From Dehalococcoidia bacterium (GTDB lineage: Bacteria > Chloroflexota > Dehalococcoidia > SZUA-161): DNA of 24,000 bases. The stretch lies in assembly GCA_014874385.1 (NCBI GenBank), contig JACWAE010000035.1, positions 1-24,000 of the forward strand. Direction: 5' to 3'. Positions 418 through 18,833 of the stretch are shown here, one piece after another; within the stretch, counting starts at the first letter, position 1; each line of letters starts with the position of its first letter. The notes under the pieces were generated by a model that made no database searches, was not told the origin of the DNA, and was given only the letters and a program-made list of their open reading frames with translations. The translations under genes and the position numbers were made by a program.

Positions 418-783
418 ATGGGGCAAGTCAAATGTGGGTCATGCTTTGTTATTTATTTTCCTGGTAGTGGGCGCCTTTTTCTATGGGAGAAAGCTTATGG
501 CATGGCTGCCCTCGTTGGTGGTATATCTCACTTACTACTAGACTTGGAAGGCTTCGTCCTCTTGTTCTACCCGTTTGTGAGCTACCGGTTCGAGCATGGA
601 AGAGTTGACTTCGCTACGTACTTACGTCAATATTTGACTTTGTCCAACCTTGGAATAGAATTGATAATAGTTGCACTGGCCGGACTGATATTATTGTTGG
701 TCAGACGACTCTACCGATGGAACAAAGAGGGAGGAAGGCTATCAGTCCCTCCCACAATTTCTCGCTTTCTTAGAAGAAAATGA
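418..783 (+). CDS. Small hydrophobic protein with a YdjM/DUF457-like SHLLLD..YPF motif; 5' end uncertain
   Basis: 121-aa ORF. The segment GGISHLLLDLEGFVLLFYPF resembles the C-terminal motif of membrane-bound metal-dependent hydrolases. Its stop overlaps the next start (ATGA at 780-783). The first ~25 codons look non-membrane. A GTG-initiated alternative frame (434-541) encodes the TM-like sequence MGHALLFIFLVVGAFFYGRK. Confidence 0.45.
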   Translation: MGQVKCGSCFVIYFPGSGRLFLWEKAYGMAALVGGISHLLLDLEGFVLLFYPFVSYRFEHGRVDFATYLRQYLTLSNLGIELIIVALAGLILLLVRRLYRWNKEGGRLSVPPTISRFLRRK

Positions 784-1496
784 ATAGTGTGTCGGGTAGA
801 ATCCTTTCTGCAATTCTCATAATTGCAATCCTTGGTGCAATCGCTGCCTTGGGATATATGCTAGTGAGCCCAAAAGGGGGCGAGGGATTTACCGAGTTCT
901 ATATGCTTGGGCCTGATGGAAACGCCCAAGGCTACCCCTCGGATTTGAAGCTGGGAGAAGAAGGAGCGGTGATCCTGGATATCACTAATCATGAGTACGA
1001 GACAATGAGATACGGAGTTGAAATAACGGTTGGAAACACGCTGCTCAAGGAGCTGGGCCCAATAGAGCTGGCTGATGGGGCAGAGTGGAGGGAGGAAGTC
1101 GGGTTCAAGGCGTCTGATTTAGGCTATCAGGAAGTTGAGTTTAAATTGTTCAAAATACGTGAGTTGGGAGAAGTGGATAAAAGGAATACCGAGCTTTCAC
1201 TTTGGCTGGGGAGTCAGGAATTGAGCATGGTGGTTATTAACGAGGGATATAGCAATGCAACGTACAATATAGAGGTGGGAGTACAAGATGGCAAGGGGCA
1301 AGAGACCAGAATAGCGGCTGCTGGCCCGGTGATTTTGGCCCCTGGTGAGAATTGGAAGCAAGACCTTGGTTATAGTCCTACTGACGTGGGAAAACAACAA
1401 TTGGAATTCTCGTTGTACAGGGATGGAGCCCTATTGTATAAAGAAGAGATACTGGGTGGTTATCCAGAGCTTTACCTCTGGATCAACGTACAGTAG
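780..1496 (+). CDS. DUF1616-like protein (archaeal-type; N-terminal TM anchor plus two tandem beta-rich repeats)
   Basis: The N-terminal TM helix (ILSAILIIAILGAIAALGYMLV) is followed by GFTEFYMLGPDGNAQGYPSDLKLGEEGAVILDITNHEYETMRYGVEI, the signature I recall for DUF1616. A second internal copy (MVVINEGYSNATYNIEVGV...QLEFSLYRDG) indicates two repeated domains. The gene is translationally coupled to the upstream ORF. Confidence 0.6.
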   Translation: MNSVSGRILSAILIIAILGAIAALGYMLVSPKGGEGFTEFYMLGPDGNAQGYPSDLKLGEEGAVILDITNHEYETMRYGVEITVGNTLLKELGPIELADGAEWREEVGFKASDLGYQEVEFKLFKIRELGEVDKRNTELSLWLGSQELSMVVINEGYSNATYNIEVGVQDGKGQETRIAAAGPVILAPGENWKQDLGYSPTDVGKQQLEFSLYRDGALLYKEEILGGYPELYLWINVQ

Positions 1497-1920: not shown

Positions 1921-1995
1921 TGGCTCCGCAGGTAGGACTCGAACCTACGACCAAGCGGTTAACAGCCGCCCGCTCTACCGCTGAGCTACTGCGGA
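1921..1995 (-). tRNA. tRNA-Asn (GTT)
   Basis: The hand-folded cloverleaf is TCCGCAG TA GCTC AGCGGTA GAGC G GGCGG CTGTTAA CCGCT TGGTC GTAGG TTCGAGT CCTAC CTGCGGA G CCA. The anticodon is GUU and CCA is encoded. Confidence 0.9.
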
Positions 1996-2021
1996 GCGTC
2001 AGGGCGCTTTTTCAATTCGTA

Positions 2022-2051
2022 AGTATAGCATGAGATGGCTGTTTTAATCAA
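2022..2051 (-). promoter_or_regulatory. Putative sigma70 promoter for tRNA-Asn
   Basis: On the reverse strand the sequence reads TTGATT, an 18-nt spacer, then TATACT. The -10 lies at 2027-2022 and the -35 at 2051-2046, about 27 nt upstream of the tRNA 5' end. Confidence 0.45.
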
Positions 2052-2117
2052 TATCGTCATTGGGGCGAGTCTTATCTCTGAGGGAAGAAAAGAGCGGAAT
2101 TAACAGTGCCGCTAAGG

Positions 2118-2191
2118 TGGCTGCCGAGCCGGGACTCGAACCCGGGCCATAGGATCCAAAGTCCTGTGTGCTACCACTACACCACTCGGCA
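2118..2191 (-). tRNA. tRNA-Gln (TTG)
   Basis: The cloverleaf is TGCCGAG TG GTGT AGTGGTA GCAC A CAGGA CTTTGGA TCCTA TGGC CCGGG TTCGAGT CCCGG CTCGGCA G CCA. The anticodon is UUG, the bacterial-type U1-A72 pair is present, and CCA is encoded. Confidence 0.88.
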
Positions 2192-2192
2192 T

Positions 2193-2281
2193 TGGTGCCG
2201 AAGGCCGGGCTCGAACCGGCATGGGGGTTGCCCCCCAACAGTTTTTGAGACTGCCGCGTCTGCCTATTCCGCCACTTCGGC
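2193..2281 (-). tRNA. tRNA-Leu (CAA), class II with long variable arm
   Basis: The fold is GCCGAAG TG GCGGAATAGGCAGACGC G GCAGT CTCAAAA ACTGT TGGGGGGCAACCCCCAT GCCGG TTCGAGC CCGGC CTTCGGC A CCA. The anticodon is CAA and the length is 89 nt. Confidence 0.88.
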
Positions 2282-2283
2282 GG

Positions 2284-2359
2284 TGGTGCCGAGGAGCAGA
2301 ATCGAACTGCTGACACCGCGATTTTCAGTCGCGTGCTCTACCAACTGAGCTACCTCGGC
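2284..2359 (-). tRNA. tRNA-Phe (GAA)
   Basis: The fold is GCCGAGG TA GCTC AGTTGGTA GAGC A CGCGA CTGAAAA TCGCG GTGTC AGCAG TTCGATT CTGCT CCTCGGC A CCA. The anticodon is GAA. Confidence 0.9.
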
Positions 2360-5949: not shown

Positions 5950-6882
5950 ATGACCGAGATAGCGATTCGCACTGAGAACCTGACACGGGATTTCAGTACG
6001 GTGAGGGCTGTGGACGGCCTCTCGATGGAAGTTCCCAGCGGGATCATCTTCGGCTTCCTGGGGCCTAATGCCTCGGGGAAGACCACTACAATCAACCTGC
6101 TGCTGGGACTGCTGGAGCCAACTGTGGGAAAGGCGGAGGTGCTGGGCTTCGATACCCGGACGCAGGCTGACGCAGTCCGTTCCCACTCGGGAGCGCTGCT
6201 GGAACACCCGGGCCTCTACGAGCAGATGAGCGCCGAGGAGAACCTGGAGTTCTATGGACGGGTCTGGCGCTTGCCCTCTGCCGAAAGGCAGGCTCGCATT
6301 AAGGAACTGCTCACCCACTTCGGGCTGTGGGAACGGAGAAGAGAGGCTGTGGACAAGTGGAGCCGGGGCATGAAGCAGAAGCTGGCTATGGCCCGGGCAC
6401 TGCTACATCGGCCATCCCTGGTTTTTCTCGATGAACCCACAGCGGGGCTCGATGTGGTGGCTGCGGCCTCGCTGCGCGATGACCTGGCCGGATTGGCGGC
6501 TCGCGAGGGCGTGACTGTCTTCCTGACCACGCATAACATGTCGGAAGCGGAGAAATTGTGCCGTCTGGTGGCTGTCATTCGAAAAGGCAAGCTGCTGGCT
6601 GTGGGGCATCCGGATGAGTTGAGGGCACATACCGGTAGTCCTCATGTCGAGGTTCTGGGCAGCGGATTCAATGAGAGTGTGCTGAATCTGCTGCGGGCTC
6701 GTCCCGAGGTCTCGGCTGTGGAGGTGCAGGACAAGCGGTTATCAATCCAATTGCGCCAGGAGATGGACGTTGCGCCGCTGGTCGGCCTGATGGTGGGCGC
6801 CGGCGTTCAGGTAGAGGAGGTGCGTAAAGGAAAAGCCAGCCTGGAAGAGGTGTTCCTGACGTTGATGGAGGAAGAGCGATGA
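5950..6882 (+). CDS. ABC transporter ATP-binding protein (ABC-2/DrrA-like)
   Basis: Walker A is GPNASGKTT, the signature-like motif is WSRGMKQKLAMARAL, and Walker B is LVFLDEPTAGLD. The H-loop is TTHNM. A C-terminal accessory domain is present. Confidence 0.9.
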   Translation: MTEIAIRTENLTRDFSTVRAVDGLSMEVPSGIIFGFLGPNASGKTTTINLLLGLLEPTVGKAEVLGFDTRTQADAVRSHSGALLEHPGLYEQMSAEENLEFYGRVWRLPSAERQARIKELLTHFGLWERRREAVDKWSRGMKQKLAMARALLHRPSLVFLDEPTAGLDVVAAASLRDDLAGLAAREGVTVFLTTHNMSEAEKLCRLVAVIRKGKLLAVGHPDELRAHTGSPHVEVLGSGFNESVLNLLRARPEVSAVEVQDKRLSIQLRQEMDVAPLVGLMVGAGVQVEEVRKGKASLEEVFLTLMEEER

Positions 6883-8286: not shown

Positions 8287-9060
8287 ATGATGGTTAGTGA
8301 GGCGATGAGTCAGGCAGGAGCTGTAACTCCGGTACAGCAAAGCAGGTTGAGGCGAACCAATATCTCGCTGGGTTTCCTCCATCTGGCGCAGGGCATTGTC
8401 ATATTTATACTGGGCTCCGGTTTCAGCGCGCTGGTTACTGCATCGTATATAGGCTCAAGTGTGGAATACAGGTATGAGCCGCGGATATTGCTTGCGGTAT
8501 TTCTGTTCATCTCGGCGTTCTGTCACCTGCTGGTTTCGCTGCCGAAGGTATTTCCCTGGTATATCAGGAACCTGGGCAGGCATATCAACTACGTGCGCTG
8601 GTATGAGTATTCGCTTAGCGCATCGGTGATGATTGTGGTGATAGCCTCACTGTGCGGGATCACCGATTTGGTGAGCTTGCTGGGCTTGTTTGTTCTCACC
8701 GCAGGTATGAACCTGTTTGGTCTTATGATGGAGCTGCATAATCAGTCTACTGAAAAGACTAATTGGACGGCATTTGTCTTTGGGAGCATTGTTGGGGTCG
8801 TGCCCTGGGCTGTTATACTACTCTATTTCGTAAAGGCTACACCTGCACCGCCCATGTTTGTGTATGCCGTAGTTGCCTCTCTAATGTTCTTCTATGCACT
8901 GTTTCCACTGAATATGTGGCTGCAGTATGCCCGAAAAGGCCGCTGGAGAAACTATGTCTGGGGTGAGTACGGGTATATGTTCCTCAGCCTGACCGCTAAG
9001 TCGCTGCTGGCATGGCAGGTGTTCGCGGGTACGTTAAACGCTGCCTCATGGCTGCAATAA
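8287..9060 (+). CDS. Heliorhodopsin
   Basis: 257 aa with 7 TM segments. The motifs RWYEYSLSASVMIVVIASLCGITDLVSLLGLF (Glu107) and GEYGYMFLSLTAKSLLAWQVFAGTL (Lys238) closely match the heliorhodopsin 48C12 sequence as I recall it (RWVEYSLSSSVMIV..., SLVAKSALAWQIFSGTL). SD GGGGAGG lies just upstream, and the ATG at 8290 is an alternative start. Confidence 0.85.
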   Translation: MMVSEAMSQAGAVTPVQQSRLRRTNISLGFLHLAQGIVIFILGSGFSALVTASYIGSSVEYRYEPRILLAVFLFISAFCHLLVSLPKVFPWYIRNLGRHINYVRWYEYSLSASVMIVVIASLCGITDLVSLLGLFVLTAGMNLFGLMMELHNQSTEKTNWTAFVFGSIVGVVPWAVILLYFVKATPAPPMFVYAVVASLMFFYALFPLNMWLQYARKGRWRNYVWGEYGYMFLSLTAKSLLAWQVFAGTLNAASWLQ

Positions 9061-13114: not shown

Positions 13115-13549
13115 TATATCGAATAATTTCTAGAAAAAATCATCGTGCACCTTGTTTAATAATAATACAATAAATCTTCTATGGCAAGAGCAATAGCAGG
13201 AGCTTTTAGTAACGTTTTTATCCTCGAATAGTACTCCCGGTTGGGGGTTCTCTTTTGGTACCTGTTCGCCTTTTGGGAAATATGCGGGCGAGACGGTGTC
13301 ACCTTTGAGGCATGACTATTTATCTACTCCGCCTAGTACTGGCTGGTGATTGTAGCAGTAGTGCGCAGTTGATACGATTGCTACCGATATGTATCTCATT
13401 GCTCGCAAAAGGTGCGAATTCTTATTCAATAATCGAATTAGTTCTCAAAATACGGCGGAGGAACAATAGAGTATCAAAATGGCTTCACAGGATAACAAAG
13501 AGCACTTTTCTATAGCGGAAGCCTGCATTGATACAAAGAGGGCAGTACA

Positions 13550-13828
13550 GTGAACAAAACAGCAAAGATGTCAAAAAAGAGATCGAACGGGAAAAAGTCC
13601 GGTGATAAAGCAATCATGACCTGTGACGAAGTTGCTGAATTTCTCAGGGTGCATGTCAGCTCTGTGAGGCGCTGGAGTCGCTGCGGTAAGCTCAGGGCCT
13701 ACAAGGTGGGAGGCCGCGGCGATTGGCGATATCGGAAACAGGACGTTTTGGCCTTCCTATATGATACGAGCTATACCGATTCGAGAGGTCAAGGCCAGAG
13801 GGAGGTGATAGGGATGATCAAAGCGTAG
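13550..13828 (+). CDS. Excisionase-family (MerR-superfamily) helix-turn-helix DNA-binding protein with a Lys-rich N-terminus
   Basis: MTCDEVAEFLRVHVSSVRRWSRCGKLRAYKVGGRGDWRYRKQDVLAFL matches the excisionase-type HTH pattern (TIGR01764-like). The GTG start has AGAGGG upstream. Alternative ATG starts are at 13568 and 13616. Confidence 0.7.
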   Translation: MNKTAKMSKKRSNGKKSGDKAIMTCDEVAEFLRVHVSSVRRWSRCGKLRAYKVGGRGDWRYRKQDVLAFLYDTSYTDSRGQGQREVIGMIKA

Positions 13829-13911
13829 GCCATGCATTTTCTCTGGCAGCCTGCTGTGCCACGAGCAGGCGTAGTGGGTAGTGGCATCAAACTGATAAGG
13901 AGGAAATAAGG

Positions 13912-14535
13912 ATGTTGAAAAGATTAGCAAAGACAATGCGAAGGGACGAGAGAGGCATCACCGGCCTGGAGACGGCGATCATCCTGATTGCCTTCGTGGT
14001 TGTGGCCTCCGTATTTGCCTACACTGTGTTGTCAGCAGGTATATTCTCGTCCCAGAAGGGGCAGGAGGCAGTCTATACCGGGCTGCAGACTGCGAGGTCC
14101 ACACTGGCACTGAAGGGCGATGTGGTTGCCGAGAGCAATGTAGGTAACACCACAGGTAACGCTTCTATCATCGAGCTGGTGGTCGACGTAACCAATGCTT
14201 TGAATGGCGAGTCCATCGACCTGACAGGACCGAGTAATGACGGCAATGGCACGGCTGCCGCAGGCAGTCAGAACGTGTGCGTTGTTTCCTATGCGGACAA
14301 CACTCAGCGCATTGACGACCTGTACTGGACTGCGACACAAGTGGCCAAGGGGAATGGTGACTTCATACTGGATGCCGGCGAGACCTTCCAGATGACGATA
14401 TACCTGACAGCGGTTCCTGGGGGCGTAGGTACCTATAAGACCTTCGATATAGAGATCAAGCCGCCCGTTGGCAGCGTACTGACTATCGAGAGGACGACCC
14501 CTGCCGCCCTTAGCGCCTGGATGATACTGAACTAA
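13912..14535 (+). CDS. Archaellin-like protein 1 (archaeal class III signal peptide / type IV pilin-like N-terminus)
   Basis: A strong SD (AAGGAGGAAATAAGGATG) precedes the start. A basic leader is followed by RG|[39 protein letters not shown]. This is very close to the crenarchaeal archaellin N-terminus as I recall it from Sulfolobus FlaB/ArlB ([37 protein letters not shown]). The beta-rich C-terminal domain ends [20 protein letters not shown]. Confidence 0.7.
   Translation: [207 protein letters not shown]
13948..14085 (+). repeat. Conserved N-terminal cassette, copy 1 (direct repeat with 14640-14777)
   Basis: About 138 nt are roughly 90% identical by eye to the paralogous segment. Most differences are synonymous third-position changes. 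Confidence 0.7.
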
Positions 14536-14603
14536 CGGTCAGGATATCAGAATTAGTTGGAGACTAAGTATCCAAAGAGGTAAGGTATAGAGGAGGCACT
14601 GAG

Positions 14604-15197
14604 ATGCTTAAAGGATTGTACAAGAACCTGCGCCGGGATGAGAGAGGCATCACTGGCCTGGAGACGGCGATCATCCTGATTGCCTTCGTGGTTGTAGCCT
14701 CCGTATTTGCGTATACCGTGTTGTCGGCAGGTATTTTCTCGTCCCAGAAGGCCCAGGAGGCGGTCTATGCAGGGCTGGCAGAGACCCAGGCGACCATGAA
14801 TGTCAAGGGGAGCATGTATGCTTATGGCAATGACTCCTCTGGGAACTGGACTGTGGACGCAGTGTCGTTCACGCTGACCACTGCTGAGAAGGGGCAGGCC
14901 ATTGACCTGACGCCGAACACTGGGAATGGTACTGCTGTCACCGTAATCAGCTACACTGATAAAGACCAGCATGTTGCCGCGTTGCCGTGGACTGTCACCT
15001 GGATAGGCAAGAACAACGGTGACAACCTGCTGGAGCAGGATGAGCAGGCTGTGGTAAGGGTAGACTTATCAGGACTGAGCCCCCTTCCCATCGCTTATGA
15101 CACATTCACCATTGAGGTGAAGCCTGTGACCGGTGCAGCCCTGGTACTGAACCGGACGTTGCCCGCCAGGATCGATGCTGTGATAAACCTTGACTAG
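14604..15197 (+). CDS. Archaellin-like protein 2 (paralog of 13912-14535)
   Basis: SD GAGGAGG lies upstream. The N-terminal segment RG|[34 protein letters not shown] is identical to the paralog. The central region is divergent, and the C-terminus [20 protein letters not shown] is related. Confidence 0.7.
   Translation: [197 protein letters not shown]
14640..14777 (+). repeat. Conserved N-terminal cassette, copy 2
   Basis: See 13948-14085. Confidence 0.7.
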
Positions 15198-15221
15198 AAG
15201 CAGAAGTGGGCGAAGATGAAA

Positions 15222-15274
15222 GAGGCCGCTGGCACGGGGGCAAAAATACCGCCCCGGCAGCGACCTCTTTGTTG
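15222..15274 (+). terminator. Possible terminator after the archaellin-like pair
   Basis: An imperfect GC-rich stem pairs GAGGCCGCTGGCACGGGGGC with GCCCCGGCAGCGACCTC. It is followed by TTTGTTG. Confidence 0.35.
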
Positions 15275-15305
15275 AGAATTGATACCTAACCGCTCCCCCT
15301 CTCTA

Positions 15306-15334
15306 TTGACTTGCACCGTATTTGTCTCTAGCAT
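15306..15334 (+). promoter_or_regulatory. Putative sigma70 promoter for the HgdB-like gene
   Basis: TTGACT (15306-15311), a 17-nt spacer, then TAGCAT (15329-15334). Confidence 0.4.
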
Positions 15335-15379
15335 AGTCTTACCACGGCAAGAGTCTCACGAAATAAAGGTGGGGTAGCG

Positions 15380-16693
15380 ATGGCTCTAAGAGGCCTCGAG
15401 CGCTTCAAGCAGGAGCGTGATGCGCTGCAGCTCGTTCTTCAAACGCTTGAGCAGAATCAATCGCCTGAAAGCCAGCTTACTGCAACCCTGATTGAGGCGA
15501 TGCTAGAGACCGCCCAGCGCATAATTGAAGCTGCTGAAAGGGGCGAGCCTTTCATCGCAACCTCTTACGGGAACGCACCGGAGCTGCTGGTTGCCCTGGA
15601 CCTCCCCTGGTACCCGCTTTTGCTGGTGACATATCTGCCCACCCGGCAACCCTTCATTTTGCAAGAAATCGATGAAGCAGTCAGATTCGGGCTGGGCACC
15701 GATACCTGCACGCTCATCAGGTTAGGCATCAGCAATGTTCAGGCGGGACGCGTACCGCTGCCAACTGCATTCGTCGGCCTGCTTTCCCCGTGCGACGGTG
15801 CCAGCGCGCTGCATCAGGCCATAGCTCACGACAGGTACTGGCGCAACGTGCCGACTTTCTGCACCGACCCCCCATACCGGGATAACGACCTCAGCATAGA
15901 TTTCCACGCTGACGAGCTACGGGGTATGGTATCCTTCCTCGAAGAACACACCGGCCGCAAGCTGAACCTTGACCGACTTCGAGAGGTTGTCAAAGAGTCC
16001 AACAAACAATACGAGCTGTGGGCAGCGTACAATAAAATGAGGCGTGTAGTGCCATGCCCCCCTGCAGCTTCCAAGGGAGCGCAGGCCTGGAATGTGGCTC
16101 AGAACTTCATGGTTGGCGATCCCAGAGGCACCGAGTGGTTCAGAAAGCTTGTCCGCATCACAGAGCAGCAGGTAAGAGAGGGCAAGGGGTATGCGCCGAA
16201 CGAAAGGATAAGGCTGCTATGGTTTGATGTTCCTCCTCTATGGTCATCTGAGTTGACAAAGTGGCTTAAAGAGGAGTGGGGAGCCTGTATCGTAATGGAC
16301 ATGATGGGTTATGCATCCCAGACGTTGATTGACACCTCAAGTGAGCAGAGCATATTCAGGGGCCTGGCCAAGAGGAATCTGTGCGAACTGCCCATGGTCA
16401 GGCAAGTTCACGGCACTGCTGATACCCTCATCAATGACATCGTGCAGTTATCGAAAGACTACAAGATAGACTGTGTCATCTGGCCCGCCCATATGGGGCA
16501 CAAGGATGGGTCGGCAAGTATAGGCATCATGCGCCAGATATGCCGCGAAATCGGGGTTCCCTTCCTCGCCCTGGGGCTCGACCTCTTCGACAAAAGATAC
16601 ACATCAATAGAGCGCCTGAAGGACAAGCTCTCCGAGTTCTTCGATACAATGGGGCTTGGTCAGACGCAGCTACTTGAGCCATCATCGCATTAA
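15380..16693 (+). CDS. 2-hydroxyacyl-CoA dehydratase / BcrC-BadD-HgdB family protein (possibly double-cubane-cluster-protein-like)
   Basis: 437 aa. SD AAGGTGGGG lies upstream. The overall pattern resembles HGD-D family members: an N-terminal helical segment, then PFIATSYGNAPELLVALDLPWYP, the conserved Cys contexts TDTCTLIR and SPCDGASALHQ, and C-terminal DCVIWPAHMGHKDG. Confidence 0.6.
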   Translation: MALRGLERFKQERDALQLVLQTLEQNQSPESQLTATLIEAMLETAQRIIEAAERGEPFIATSYGNAPELLVALDLPWYPLLLVTYLPTRQPFILQEIDEAVRFGLGTDTCTLIRLGISNVQAGRVPLPTAFVGLLSPCDGASALHQAIAHDRYWRNVPTFCTDPPYRDNDLSIDFHADELRGMVSFLEEHTGRKLNLDRLREVVKESNKQYELWAAYNKMRRVVPCPPAASKGAQAWNVAQNFMVGDPRGTEWFRKLVRITEQQVREGKGYAPNERIRLLWFDVPPLWSSELTKWLKEEWGACIVMDMMGYASQTLIDTSSEQSIFRGLAKRNLCELPMVRQVHGTADTLINDIVQLSKDYKIDCVIWPAHMGHKDGSASIGIMRQICREIGVPFLALGLDLFDKRYTSIERLKDKLSEFFDTMGLGQTQLLEPSSH

Positions 16694-17161
16694 ACACTTC
16701 TCAAAATCGGCTACCAGATAGTTCTTGCCTTTCTGGATTATCTTATGGCCCTCCCCCTCCAGAAGCCTTTTTTGAGTCTCAACCCCGCCGGGATATTTCT
16801 CGTTGATAACCCCTCTTGATTTCAATGTCCGCCAATAGGGGATGGTTTCTCTCTTGCCTTCTGTTGCGGCTTCCTCCGCCGCATGAGCCGCAACCCAGGC
16901 AAAGATTCCCGTCGTTATGGGACATCCGATGGAAGCGCAGTGCCTTTCAGCCAGGATTTCGCGGATCTCATTTATAGTAATGAGCTTGCCCCTGGGGACC
17001 TTACCCATAATCTCAGCCACTTCCCTGGGTGCCGGGATAACGACGGTACCCGTTCCCCATCTCTTGCTCATCTTATCGTTTATCTCTACCACCTTGGGCA
17101 GGTCTTTGCTGTCCGCCAGCTTCTCCTGCCAGGACTTGCGCGGCTGGGATTTGCTTCCCAT
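16682..17161 (-). CDS. MGMT-family (alkyltransferase-like DNA-binding domain) protein lacking the PCHR active site
   Basis: The sequence SWQEKLADSKDLPKVVEI...VPRGKLITINEIREILAERHCASIGCPITTGIFAWVAAHAAEE resembles proteins annotated as MGMT family. The strong SD AAGGAGG 7 nt before the ATG at 17161 argues against the 17209 start in the ORF track. The 3' end overlaps the convergent gene by 12 nt. Confidence 0.5.
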   Translation of the reverse strand: MGSKSQPRKSWQEKLADSKDLPKVVEINDKMSKRWGTGTVVIPAPREVAEIMGKVPRGKLITINEIREILAERHCASIGCPITTGIFAWVAAHAAEEAATEGKRETIPYWRTLKSRGVINEKYPGGVETQKRLLEGEGHKIIQKGKNYLVADFEKCLMR

Positions 17162-17294
17162 CCCCTTGCCTCCTTGATAATAAGGTCTAGTTGTATTCAT
17201 GCACCTCATTATAACCGAAAATTGGGAGCGATTCGCGAACCACCCCTGGATTCCCCGCTTAAACCGATCCCTTGACGAGAGAGGAATTCATCAT

Positions 17295-17358
17295 CCTCCC
17301 TCCTCTGGCAGGAGGGATTGGAGGGGGAGGGCTACTTCTCCCTCCCCCGCTCCTCTGC
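17295..17358 (+). promoter_or_regulatory. Polypyrimidine/polypurine alternative-hairpin leader upstream of mntP
   Basis: Hairpin 1 pairs CCCTCCT (17298-17304) with AGGAGGG (17310-17316). Hairpin 2 pairs GGGGGAGGG (17323-17331) with CCCTCCCCC (17340-17348). The purine tract at 17310-17331 could pair with either flanking pyrimidine tract. Confidence 0.3.
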
Positions 17359-17372
17359 TATACTATGGCATT

Positions 17373-17933
17373 GTGGATTTAATCTCGATTCCCCTCATAG
17401 CAGTCGGCTTATCCATGGACTGCCTGGCAGTCGCTATTGCCGGCAGCATCTCCGTGCCTGGCGTTTCCCACCGCCAGATACTGCGGGTCGCCTTCGCCTT
17501 CGGGCTGTTCCAGTTCGGTATGCTGGTGGGAGGCTGGTATGCCGGGCAGACAGTTGTGGAAACCGTCGAGGCCTACGACCACTGGATAGCCTTCGGTTTG
17601 CTGCTGCTGGTGGGCGCACATATGCTCTGGGAGGCCATACGGGGTGAAGAGGAAGGCCACAAACGCACCGACATCACCAAGGGTATACCCTTACTCACCC
17701 TGTCCATAGCCACCAGCATAGACTCGCTGGGTGTTGGCCTGGGCCTGGCCTTTGTAGAGTCAAGGGTATGGCTCGCCGCCCTGATAGTGGGGAGCGTTTG
17801 TTTCCTCATCACCGCCGCCGGTTTTTACACAGGCAAAAGGATTGGGGGCTGGCTGGGGCGCTGGGCCGATGCCCTCGGCGGGCTGGTTCTCATAGGCATC
17901 GGGGTTAGGATACTGATAACGCACCTGTTCTGA
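17373..17933 (+). CDS. mntP: Manganese efflux pump MntP
   Basis: The N-terminus from the GTG at 17373 (MDLISIPLIAVGLSMDCLAVAIAGS) matches the N-terminus of about 188-aa MntP proteins (LSMDAFAVS). A second half-repeat reads LSIATSIDSLGVGL. The 58 upstream codons in the ORF track are non-hydrophobic and overlap the divergent gene. Confidence 0.8.
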   Translation: MDLISIPLIAVGLSMDCLAVAIAGSISVPGVSHRQILRVAFAFGLFQFGMLVGGWYAGQTVVETVEAYDHWIAFGLLLLVGAHMLWEAIRGEEEGHKRTDITKGIPLLTLSIATSIDSLGVGLGLAFVESRVWLAALIVGSVCFLITAAGFYTGKRIGGWLGRWADALGGLVLIGIGVRILITHLF

Positions 17934-17960
17934 TTGTCGCAACCCACGCCATAAGACAAT

Positions 17961-17988
17961 GTAGGGGCTCAAAATTTTGAGCCCCTAC
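17961..17988. repeat. Perfect 28-nt palindrome, GTAG...CTAC family; probable mntP terminator
   Basis: The sequence is GTAGGGGCTCAAAATTTTGAGCCCCTAC, 27 nt after the mntP stop. Confidence 0.7.
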
Positions 17989-18122
17989 CGAAAGCCTTGA
18001 CAGCCAGCAAACGAAGAGCTTAACATAGCCATTGGATAGCATTGTAATTCCCGGCGATCGGGGCACCCCAGTGTGCACATTCGGTATTTAAGTTGGGGGA
18101 TTACGTAAAGGCATAACTTGTT

Positions 18123-18833
18123 ATGAACATCGAATTAGAGACACTGCTCCATCGGAGAGTTATCACACACTGCAAACAACTTTACGAGGATGGGCACTAT
18201 AAACATGCTGCCCTGGAAGCGATGACTCAAGTGGAGTTAGCTTTAAAAGAAAAGGTGGATGTTAAAAACAAGTATGGCGTCAAGCTTATAGAAGGTCTCT
18301 TTGGGGAGCGAAAAGGCATTAAGCTACATGTGCCCTTCGGCGGGGAAATGCAAGAACAGGCCGAGACATTGTTAAAAGGGGCTTTCTCATATTACCGAAA
18401 TTATGCTGCGCATGACGGCAGTAAAATAGACGCCAAAACCTGCACAAGGATTATGATATTAGCAAGCGAATTACTCGACCTGATAGGGGCTTCTTCTTTG
18501 AGCTTCGCTGATATTGGTGGCATTTCAGGCCTTGTTCAAGCAGGGGTTTTCCGGGACCCTACCGATATCTTCAAACTACTCTGCTTCATAACTAAGTACG
18601 TAATACCAGACGACATTATTGATGGCTTTTATGAAGACTTAGCAATAGAAGGATTCACTGATCATCAAGTTCAGGCAGTTATTGAAACCGGATTAGTTGA
18701 GTATATCACTGAACATCCCTTAGTTCAGTCAGAGGGGATATTCCCCGATGATGAGCCTGAAACAATCAGTCACTTCGAGTTGACCGAGTTAGGGAAAGGG
18801 ACCGTCGCAAGTCTGGCATCGCATGCCACTTAA
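18123..18833 (+). CDS. TIGR02391 (Hypoth_Ymh)-family protein with an uncharacterised acidic C-terminal domain
   Basis: The N-terminal ~125 aa fit the TIGR02391 pattern as I recall it: ...LYEDGHYKHAALEAMTQVELALKE...LLKGAFSYYRNYAAHD...ILASELLDLI. The gene is visibly more AT-rich than its neighbours. Confidence 0.55.
   Translation: MNIELETLLHRRVITHCKQLYEDGHYKHAALEAMTQVELALKEKVDVKNKYGVKLIEGLFGERKGIKLHVPFGGEMQEQAETLLKGAFSYYRNYAAHDGSKIDAKTCTRIMILASELLDLIGASSLSFADIGGISGLVQAGVFRDPTDIFKLLCFITKYVIPDDIIDGFYEDLAIEGFTDHQVQAVIETGLVEYITEHPLVQSEGIFPDDEPETISHFELTELGKGTVASLASHAT

What the first reader, a model, noticed from the sequence alone, without database searches (positions are those of the whole stretch)
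13550..15274. Orphan tandem archaellin-like genes (archaeal class III signal peptides) behind an excisionase-type HTH gene in a bacterial chromosome
Two adjacent ORFs (13912-14535 and 14604-15197) have strong SD sites. Each begins with a short basic leader followed by RG|[34 protein letters not shown]. This is much closer to crenarchaeal archaellin (FlaB/ArlB) N-termini than to bacterial type IVa, Flp or TadE pilins. Their ~140-aa beta-rich C-terminal parts end in an archaellin-like F(D/T)IE(I/V)KP..G..L...RT.P strand. Everything else in the window is bacterial: sigma70 promoters, RsuA-type synthase, DegV, MntP and CCA-encoding tRNAs. No ArlH/ArlI/ArlJ-type ATPase or platform, no ArlF/G, and no prepilin peptidase lies within about 9-13 kb on either side. 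The only candidate partner is the small excisionase-type HTH gene 84 nt upstream. Complete archaellum clusters have been reported in a few Chloroflexota. A filament-subunit pair detached from any motor and coupled to a dedicated HTH is different. The pair could be a distally assembled filament, a repurposed pilus or adhesin, or a surface-sheath subunit. Glu at +5 after the predicted G|I cleavage fits processing by a type IV prepilin peptidase.
Basis: partly seen in the sequence, partly recalled or inferred. Interest (0 to 1): 0.8.

Follow-up and report, generated by a model that had tools for sequence, protein, structure and literature searches.

The report
Bacterial archaellin pair, motor encoded elsewhere
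These two genes are genuine archaellum filament subunits in a Dehalococcoidia bacterium, a system already described in this phylum, and they only look orphaned because the contig joins the front of the archaellum operon to the back of a second, duplicated archaellin locus, while the motor genes are present in the same samples.

Summary
ORFs 13912-14535 and 14604-15197 are true archaellins: Pfam PF01917 scores 74 and 83 bits against a cutoff of 29.5, and TIGR02537 also passes. Both match the solved Litorilinea aerophila ArlB filament along their full length (E 3e-36 and 5e-42). An HTH_17 gene sits upstream, the host is Dehalococcoidia, and the window holds no motor gene.

The "orphan" interpretation does not hold. 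In all 11 related loci with the same upstream flank, HTH-arlB-arlB runs straight into hyp-ArlG-ArlF-ArlH, and into ArlI-ArlJ wherever the contig reaches that far (one odd contig, L036, excepted). The window's downstream flank (HGD-D, MntP, TrpEG) belongs to a second, motor-less archaellin pair (locus B). Locus B is a partial duplicate of the operon head, recurs in about 12 other contigs and exchanges sequence with locus A by gene conversion.

Independent k=31 assemblies of the three runs that carry the window's exact sequence break at both repeat edges (13913 and 15155). They fork at 15185 toward either HGD-D or a complete ArlG-F-H-I-J cluster. So the organism has the motor.

The window is a 35-kb MAG contig that crosses from locus A to locus B. 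This is probably a mis-join and less probably a real recombination. Archaella in Chloroflexota were published in 2025, so interest is low.

The parts
13307..13466 (+). Conserved noncoding element, probably the promoter plus upstream regulatory sites of the archaellum operon head. Core motif TAGTACTnnnTGGTGATTG; candidate -35 TTGCTC and -10 TATTCA.
   Evidence: About 90% conserved across A loci and 75-77% to the region directly upstream of single arlB genes in L003, L004 and L005. Indels are not multiples of 3. Absent from B loci. No Rfam match. The promoter assignment is inferred.
13550..13828 (+). HTH_17 / excisionase-type small DNA-binding protein (92 aa), first gene of locus A. Candidate regulator of the archaellum operon.
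   Evidence: PF12728 49 bits, TIGR01764 38.8 bits. Sits exactly 87 nt (91 in L034) before arlB1 in all 11 A-type loci and is 85-96% identical to the L034/L035 copies. Absent from B loci and from distant Dehalococcoidales archaellum loci. No integrase nearby.
13849..13870 (+). 7-bp hairpin or palindrome (GCCTGCT-N8-AGCAGGC) in the HTH-arlB1 spacer.
   Evidence: Conserved in A and B loci, with compensatory changes in L053 (GCCCGT..ACGGGC). Folding energy is not better than shuffles (z -0.69). Function unknown.
13884..15184 (+). Repeat shared between archaellin loci A and B in this population. The assembly graph forks at both edges.
   Evidence: Logan contigs L118-120 (100% identical to the window) all end at 13913, so the last shared 30-mer is 13884-13913. 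L116 (HGD-D side) and L122/L123 (motor side) both start at 15155, share 30 nt and diverge at 15185. Fixed A/B differences stop at 13883.
13912..14535 (+). arlB1 archaellin (207 aa). Predicted cleavage at G15|I16.
   Evidence: PF01917 74.3 bits; TIGR02537 34.1 bits; PDB 9i5h E 2.9e-36. Only 75% identical to arlB1 of the closest A-type relative L044. Carries B-state at both fixed sites inside the gene (14324, 14520).
14604..15197 (+). arlB2 archaellin (197 aa). Predicted cleavage at G15|I16. The copy physically linked to HGD-D.
   Evidence: PF01917 82.7 bits; TIGR02537 34.8 bits; PDB 9i5h E 4.7e-42. L116 and L117 link its 3' part to HGD-D. The paralog P0001 (94% identical; residues 89-193 identical) shares its recorded contig length (11,183 bp) with the first motor-cluster gene, P0139.
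15222..15274 (+). Long hairpin plus U-tract (UUUGUUG): intrinsic terminator of the locus-B type.
   Evidence: -29.4 kcal/mol, z -3.9. The window and B loci have the T-rich tail. A loci have a stronger stem (-39.1) but the tail AAUGGCAUAAAAAAC and then the next operon gene. Window sites 15199 and 15219 are A-state; from 15235 on they are B-state.
15306..15334 (+). Sigma-70-like promoter (TTGACT-17-TAGCAT) of the HGD-D gene, part of the locus-B downstream flank.
   Evidence: Conserved in B loci L002, L047 and L054.
15380..16693 (+). HGD-D family (2-hydroxyacyl-CoA dehydratase D-component) gene, the first gene of the locus-B downstream flank. Not part of the archaellum.
   Evidence: PF06050 2.4e-47. 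The same arlB-arlB-HGD-D-...-MntP-cyclase-TrpEG order is seen in L001, L002/L045, L046, L047, L048, L053, L054, L056, L057, L074, L083 and L109.

Best explanation
The two genes are ordinary ArlB archaellins of a Dehalococcoidia bacterium that has a complete, horizontally acquired archaellum.

The lineage keeps at least three archaellin loci. Locus A is the operon: conserved promoter, HTH_17, arlB1, arlB2, a hairpin without a U-tract, then hyp, arlG, arlF, arlH, arlI, arlJ. Locus B is a partial duplicate of the operon head: a decayed remnant of the HTH 3' end, arlB1, arlB2, and a hairpin with a U-tract, inserted upstream of HGD-D...TrpEG. Locus C is a single arlB behind the same promoter element. 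Loci A and B exchange sequence by gene conversion.

The window carries the upstream flank of A and the downstream flank of B. Its arlB2 is the locus-B copy and its arlB1 probably is too. These subunits would be cleaved at G15|I16 by a PilD/PibD-type peptidase and polymerised by the ArlHIJ machinery encoded at locus A elsewhere in the genome.

The switch from the A flank to locus B lies just after 13884, in the near-identical SD, signal-peptide and N-terminal-helix region. It is most probably a mis-join in the 35-kb short-read MAG contig.

Shown: the family identity, the A/B/C architecture, the gene conversion, the graph forks, and the presence of the motor in the same samples. Inferred: the peptidase step, assembly in trans, and that the join is an artefact rather than real.
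For: Family identity.

Locus A with motor: in L034, L035, L036-40, L041-43 and L044 the upstream flank is the same as the window's (RMMBL, ABC, 4HBT, heliorhodopsin, DegV, rSAM, abhydrolase, HTH).

Locus B without motor or HTH: about 12 contigs, including L001 on the same 1.75-Mb contig as L034.

B derives from A: B loci hold a remnant of the HTH 3' end.

Gene conversion: A and B copies of one genome cluster together (bootstrap 89-92). P0001 and the window arlB2 are identical over residues 89-193.

Mosaic of fixed sites in the window: A | B | A | B.

Source: a 35,366-bp NCBI contig.

Logan assemblies of SRR12217121/22/23. The HTH flank is 100% identical to the window and ends at 13913. The HGD-D flank is 100% identical and starts at 15155. 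The motor contigs L121-123 (hyp219-ArlG-F-H-I-J) start at the same point, share 30 nt and diverge at 15185. The motor contig is as distant from L044 (90.4%) as the window flank is (87.5-95.7%).

Phasing conflict: L117 has a flank identical to the window but carries the other paralog's patch in arlB2. So assemblers phase this repeat inconsistently.

Published background: archaellum clusters in 243 of 3,780 Chloroflexota, including Dehalococcoidales; the peptidase is encoded outside the locus; second incomplete loci were noted (PMC12488501).
Against: No read-level or long-read evidence was available, so the join HTH-arlB1 (13884-14100) could be real.

The MAG is self-consistent at the 167-nt identical stretch. 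The window-type arlB2 leads to HGD-D on the 35-kb contig. The P0001-type arlB2 is recorded on an 11,183-bp contig, the same length recorded for the first motor gene P0139, which suggests (but does not prove) that it leads to the motor.

In a long-read genome the longest exact A/B match is only 68 nt, which is short enough for large-k assemblers to resolve.

Co-occurrence in three runs does not strictly prove that the motor contig and the window come from one genome.

No prepilin peptidase was located.
Confidence: 0.7

Rival explanations
1. The arrangement is real. A reciprocal exchange between the paralogous pairs of loci A and B, for example an inversion, placed the HTH and conserved promoter in front of the motor-less pair. 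The motor genes moved behind the other pair. The archaellum stays functional but its regulation is rewired.
For: Inter-locus gene conversion is demonstrably active. The MAG assembler produced a through-path, and its two contigs appear mutually consistent if P0001 and P0139 share the 11,183-bp contig, as their matching recorded contig lengths suggest. Exact A/B repeats in a related long-read genome are 68 nt or shorter.
Against: None of about 11 A-type and 12 B-type loci from relatives shows such an exchange. A and B are in direct orientation in the 1.75-Mb genome, where a reciprocal crossover would split the chromosome. Independent assemblies break exactly at the repeat edges and phase the paralogs differently.
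Confidence: 0.22
2. The pair is a truly motor-independent filament, adhesin or sheath subunit set controlled by the HTH protein.
For: No motor lies in the 24-kb window. Locus-B pairs are conserved and intact without adjacent motor genes.
Against: The motor cluster is present in the same samples and follows a 94%-identical paralog. The genome that carries locus B (L001) also carries locus A with the motor (L034). The proteins are full-length homologs of a solved rotating archaellum filament subunit. The HTH gene heads full operons everywhere else.
Confidence: 0.04
3. The pair is a relic left after deletion of the motor genes from locus A. The archaellins are decaying and non-functional.
For: The window shows the operon head directly abutting unrelated genes.
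Against: Both ORFs are intact, with SD sites and a terminator. The abutting genes are precisely the conserved locus-B flank, not the locus-A downstream flank (DUF5658, NTP transferase, HflX). The motor is present in the same runs.
Confidence: 0.04

Closest known systems
Chloroflexota archaellum, ArlB of Litorilinea aerophila (PDB 9SIE/9SII/9I5H; Nat Microbiol 2025, PMC12488501)
   Same: Full-length sequence homology (E 5e-42 and 3e-36). The mature N-terminus is the same ([13 protein letters not shown]...), with Glu at +5. The C-terminal beta domain is shared. In relatives the locus is arl2-type, with arlG before arlF and then arlHIJ. The peptidase is not in the locus. The paper already lists Dehalococcoidales among archaellum-bearing orders and notes second, incomplete loci.
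   Different: This Dehalococcoidia sublineage puts an HTH_17 gene and a conserved ~160-nt element at the operon head. It has no Pfam-recognisable ArlCDE. It keeps extra archaellin loci (B and C) that undergo gene conversion. None of this was found in the parts of the paper consulted.
Methanomicrobiales archaellins (e.g. Methanospirillum hungatei FlaB3, PDB 5TFY; Methanoregula loci L031-L033)
   Same: Nearest archaeal relatives (32-35% identity; 5TFY E 2e-18). The TGLE N-terminal motif is the same. This fits the published Methanotecta origin of the transfer.
   Different: The host is a bacterium with sigma-70-type promoters and SD sites, and processing is probably by a bacterial PilD-type peptidase.
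Multi-locus archaellin sets in archaea, e.g. Halobacterium salinarum flgA1-2 and flgB1-3 at separate loci (own knowledge, not tested here)
   Same: Filament-subunit genes at a locus remote from the motor genes are assembled in trans by a single machinery.
   Different: Here the remote locus is a recognisable partial duplicate of the operon head, with an HTH pseudogene remnant, in a bacterium.
Excisionase / MerR-like HTH_17 small DNA-binding proteins (TIGR01764; BldC-like)
   Same: The domain matches above the Pfam and TIGR cutoffs.
   Different: There is no integrase or prophage context. The BldC and MADS1 models score below their cutoffs. The fixed position at the head of an archaellum operon suggests a transcriptional regulator, which is untested.

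Membership tests
Archaellin (ArlB/FlaB, Pfam PF01917) | Match to the Arch_flagellin profile above the gathering score over the full length | tested here: met
   74.3 and 82.7 bits against a cutoff of 29.5; profile positions 1-162 and 1-160 of 162.
Archaellin (ArlB/FlaB, Pfam PF01917) | Class III (type IV pilin-like) signal peptide: short basic leader, G at -1, hydrophobic N-terminal helix | tested here: met
   TIGR02537 34.1 and 34.8 bits against a cutoff of 20. I16 aligns with residue 1 of the mature ArlB chain in the solved filament 9i5h/9SIE. Actual cleavage was not tested.
Archaellin (ArlB/FlaB, Pfam PF01917) | Homology of the C-terminal globular beta domain to a solved archaellin | tested here: met
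   phmmer alignments cover query 16-196 against chain 1-182 (E 4.7e-42) and query 16-200 against chain 1-176 (E 2.9e-36).
Archaellum system (arl locus) | Co-localisation of arlB with arlF/G and arlH/I/J | tested here: not met
   None are in the 24-kb window. The feature is met in all orthologous A-type loci of relatives. The cluster is present in the same three sequencing runs.
Archaellum system (arl locus) | Class III signal peptidase (PibD/ArlK or PilD) in the genome | not tested
   Not in the window or the fetched loci. The literature says it lies outside the locus in Chloroflexota (PMC12488501).
Archaellum system (arl locus) | Assembly into a rotating filament | not testable with these tools
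   Needs microscopy, proteomics or genetics.
Bacterial Flp/TadE/type IVa pilins | Match to the Flp, TadE or N-methyl pilin profiles | tested here: not met
   No such Pfam or NCBIfam family at E<=1 for either protein.
Excisionase (recombination directionality factor) | HTH_17/TIGR01764 domain | tested here: met
   PF12728 49 bits (cutoff 27); TIGR01764 38.8 bits (cutoff 28.8).
Excisionase (recombination directionality factor) | Association with an integrase or mobile element | tested here: not met
   No integrase or phage genes in the window or in 11 syntenic loci. The gene has a fixed chromosomal position 87 nt (91 in L034) before arlB1.
BldC-family regulator | NF033787 above its cutoff | tested here: not met
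   34.6 bits against a cutoff of 77.

The most novel reading that the evidence does not exclude
The lineage uses its extra archaellin loci as a gene-conversion reservoir that reshuffles the surface-exposed domain of the filament subunits. This would give antigenic or phage-receptor variation, loosely like pilE/pilS. On this reading the window captures a genuine A x B crossover that leaves the HTH regulator and conserved promoter driving a motor-less pair, with the motor behind the other pair.
Probability: 0.2. Interest if true: 0.5.

Novelty: new member of a known kind. Interest (0 to 1): 0.25.

Why it matters
Bacterial archaella are a recent discovery (2023-2025), so another Dehalococcoidia example mainly extends a known picture.

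Three details are useful to specialists:
- A bacterial HTH_17 gene and a conserved promoter element sit at the head of the operon in one sublineage. These are candidate regulatory parts for an archaeal machine running in a bacterium.
- There are two or three archaellin loci with active gene conversion between them.
- Multi-copy archaellin genes create forks in short-read assemblies that can produce "orphan" filament genes in MAG contigs. This is a practical warning for genome scans.

Tried and rejected
- **Direct look-up of the window's contig.** Searching by exact arlB2 protein found nothing on record. P0001 also failed. So the 35-kb and 11-kb NCBI contigs could not be read.
- **Placing the A-to-B switch by phylogeny.** A and B copies intermix through conversion. 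arlB2 groups with A-type L044 although it is physically linked to HGD-D.
- **Crossover inside the hairpin.** I first mapped a clean crossover to 15220-15234. I then rejected it as the join, because the population's own A copy is identical there. It is the end of a conversion tract.
- **Structured RNA in the conserved element.** I tested whether 13307-13466 or the HTH-arlB1 spacer is a known structured RNA such as a riboswitch. There was no Rfam hit, and the spacer hairpin folds no better than shuffles.
- **Second arlB1 copy.** I searched for one from the same MAG. Nothing above 82% identity appeared in the top 120 hits, so the 11-kb contig probably starts inside the repeat.
- **Archaeal or cross-organism chimeric contig.** Rejected. 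Both flanks are equally distant from the same reference genomes: about 86% amino-acid identity to L034 and L001, and 87-96% nucleotide identity to L044.
- **Structure prediction.** Not run, because full-length sequence matches to a solved archaellin made it unnecessary.
Full report
**1. Observation**

The three ORFs exist as described: 13550-13828 (92 aa), 13912-14535 (207 aa) and 14604-15197 (197 aa). The two larger ones have strong SD sites. Both are archaellins by every sequence test available.
- Pfam Arch_flagellin scores 74.3 and 82.7 bits (cutoff 29.5) over the whole profile.
- TIGR02537 (archaellin/type IV pilin N-terminal domain) scores 34.1 and 34.8 bits (cutoff 20).
- No Flp, TadE or type IVa pilin model hit at E<=1.

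The best solved-structure match for both is chain 9i5h_C, the same sequence as 9SIE/9SII (E 4.7e-42 and 2.9e-36). These entries are the cryo-EM model of the Litorilinea aerophila bacterial archaellum. The mature chain starts [13 protein letters not shown]... and aligns with I16 of both window proteins. This supports cleavage at RG|I. The alignment runs through the C-terminal F.IE.KP..G....RT.P strand.

The small ORF is HTH_17/excisionase-type (PF12728 49 bits; TIGR01764 38.8 bits). The rest of the window holds no ArlF/G/H/I/J, T2SSE/T2SSF or A24 peptidase. It is bacterial in character: an RsuA-type synthase, DegV, MntP, TrpEG, and four tRNAs that all encode CCA.

**2. Taxon and prior knowledge**

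The family is very large, with more than 7,800 hits. The close relatives in species-representative genomes are all Dehalococcoidia or Dehalococcoidales MAGs. The nearest archaea are Methanoregula/Methanomicrobiales at 32-35% identity.

Sivabalasarma et al., Nat Microbiol 2025 (PMC12488501), already reported complete archaellum clusters in 243 of 3,780 Chloroflexota genomes, including Dehalococcoidales. They inferred a single transfer from Methanotecta. They found the signal peptidase encoded outside the locus (a bacterial PilD in non-SAR202 members). [quoted passage not shown] The presence of archaellins in such a bacterium is therefore known.

**3. What the locus looks like in relatives**

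Locus A. Eleven loci share the window's upstream flank: RMMBL hydrolase, ABC transporter, 4HBT, heliorhodopsin, (DegV, hyp179), B12-rSAM, abhydrolase and HTH_17. These are L034, L035, L036-L040, L041-L043 and L044. In every one, HTH-arlB-arlB is followed directly by a 217-243-aa hypothetical gene and then ArlG, ArlF and ArlH. ArlI and ArlJ follow wherever the contig extends that far, except in one odd contig, L036. L044 is the closest: its arlB2 is 87% identical, and it is the only one that shares DegV and hyp179 with the window. The HTH gene lies a fixed 87 nt (91 in L034) before arlB1 in all of them. It is absent from the more distant Dehalococcoidales archaellum loci.

Locus B. The window's downstream flank is HGD-D, a DNA_binding_1 protein, MntP, a cyclase and TrpE/TrpG. 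This is the downstream flank of a different archaellin pair. That pair has no motor and no intact HTH, and its upstream flanks vary (FecR-domain genes or others). It occurs in L001, L002/L045, L046, L047, L048, L053, L054, L056, L057, L074, L083 and L109. L001 and L034 lie on the same 1.75-Mb contig about 580 kb apart, so one genome carries both loci.

Locus C. A third locus, with a single arlB, occurs in L003, L004 and L005.

The window is the only one of about 25 loci that combines the A upstream flank with the B downstream flank.

**4. Origin of locus B and exchange between loci**

- B loci keep a decayed remnant of the 3' end of the HTH gene and the spacer hairpin. So B arose as a partial duplicate of the operon head.
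- The shared unit ends in a long hairpin after arlB2. In A loci the stem is nearly perfect (-39.1 kcal/mol) but is followed by AAUGGCAUAAAAAAC and the next operon gene. In B loci and in the window it is followed by UUUGUUG, a terminator, and then the HGD-D promoter.
- In trees, gene 1 and gene 2 form separate clades. Within each, A and B copies of the same genome cluster together (L034_g2 with L001_g2, bootstrap 89-92). This indicates gene conversion.
- The window is a mosaic at fixed A/B differences. It is A-state at 33 sites up to 13883, B-state at 14324 and 14520, A-state at 14538, 15199 and 15219, and B-state from 15235 on.

**5. The motor is in the same samples**

The window's proteins are on record from a 35,366-bp NCBI contig, which is MAG-sized and not a closed chromosome. 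Independent Logan assemblies (k=31) of three runs contain the window's sequence.
- L118, L119 and L120 match window 10422/11786/12112 to 13913 at 100% identity. All three stop at 13913.
- L116 matches window 15155-18506 at 100% identity.
- The ortholog of the gene that follows arlB2 in A loci (P0139, 93% identical to L044's) is found in the same three runs on L121, L122 and L123. These encode hyp219, ArlG (171 aa), ArlF (177), ArlH (236), ArlI (585), ArlJ (504), hyp210 and DUF5658.

L122 and L123 begin at the position equivalent to window 15155. They share exactly 30 nt (k-1) with L116 and diverge at 15185. From there they have G instead of A, TAA instead of TAG, and the A-type hairpin tail. 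This is a de Bruijn graph fork. Two arlB2-type copies share sequence up to 15184; one leads to HGD-D and the other to the motor.

The motor contig is 90.4% identical to L044. That is the same distance as the window's flank (87.5-95.7%), so it fits the same organism.

It is 94% identical to the window's arlB2 and identical over residues 89-193.

L117 has a flank 100% identical to the window from 15018 to 16998. All 15 of its differences lie in 14830-15017, where it carries the P0001-type patch. So this is a single strain with two paralogs, and assemblers phase them differently.

**6. Interpretation**

The organism is not missing a motor. The window's arlB2, its terminator and HGD-D form the true locus B.

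arlB1 is probably also the locus-B copy. It is only 75% identical to L044's arlB1, while the flanks are 88-96% identical. It also carries B-state at both internal fixed sites.

The only anomaly is the link between the HTH flank and this pair. That link crosses the repeat, which starts at 13884, and it rests on the MAG contig alone.

Synteny is conserved in about 23 other loci, and the assembly graph is ambiguous at exactly these points. I therefore rate a mis-join at about 0.7 and a genuine A x B exchange at about 0.2. A motor-independent function or a relic are each below 0.05. In either leading case the archaellins are expected to be processed by a PilD/PibD-type peptidase and assembled in trans by ArlHIJ. 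That step is inferred.

**7. Verdict**

The finding is a new member of a known kind. The residual points of interest are the HTH_17 gene and conserved promoter element at the operon head, the multi-locus gene conversion, and the assembly caveat. Interest 0.25.

Noticed in passing
window 13307-13466: A ~160-nt noncoding element (core TAGTACTnnnTGGTGATTG) is conserved upstream of the HTH gene in all A loci and directly upstream of the single arlB in L003, L004 and L005. It is absent from B loci and has no Rfam match. It is probably a shared promoter or operator region.
   Followed up: partly
window 418-1496: A DUF1616 protein (PF07760, E 1.6e-36), a mostly archaeal family, overlaps the stop of a 121-aa membrane-like ORF. 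In L094 an HTH_17 paralog (18338-18604) sits next to a DUF1616 gene (about 19449).
   Followed up: no
window 8287-9060: Heliorhodopsin gene (PF18761, E 1e-79), conserved in the same flank in relatives L035-L044.
   Followed up: no
window 1921-2359 (- strand): Cluster of four tRNAs (Asn, Gln, Leu, Phe), all with genomically encoded CCA.
   Followed up: yes
L034 10698-11351 and 16378-17034; L121 97-756 and 5768-6400: The A-type archaellum operons of this sublineage have no Pfam-recognisable ArlC/D/E. Two conserved hypothetical genes, one after arlB2 and one after arlJ, have no family match. The gene order is G-F-H-I-J, whereas distant Dehalococcoidales loci show G-F-F-J-...-H-I.
   Followed up: partly
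L036 13282-15672: In one ENA contig ArlH is followed by Amidohydro_2/GRDB genes instead of ArlI, unlike four sibling contigs with the same proteins. This is another possible rearrangement or mis-join at this locus.
   Followed up: no
window 13849-13870: A 7-bp palindrome or hairpin in the HTH-arlB1 spacer is kept in A and B loci, with compensatory changes in L053, but it is not thermodynamically unusual.
   Followed up: partly
window 18123-18833: A Hypoth_Ymh-family gene lies between MntP and the cyclase. It was not detected in this flank in the relatives, several of which instead carry a MIP channel gene between DNA_binding_1 and MntP.
   Followed up: no
L044 about 6594-6604: A run of N masks the start of the HTH gene in the closest relative's contig. 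This explains the lower apparent identity there.
   Followed up: yes
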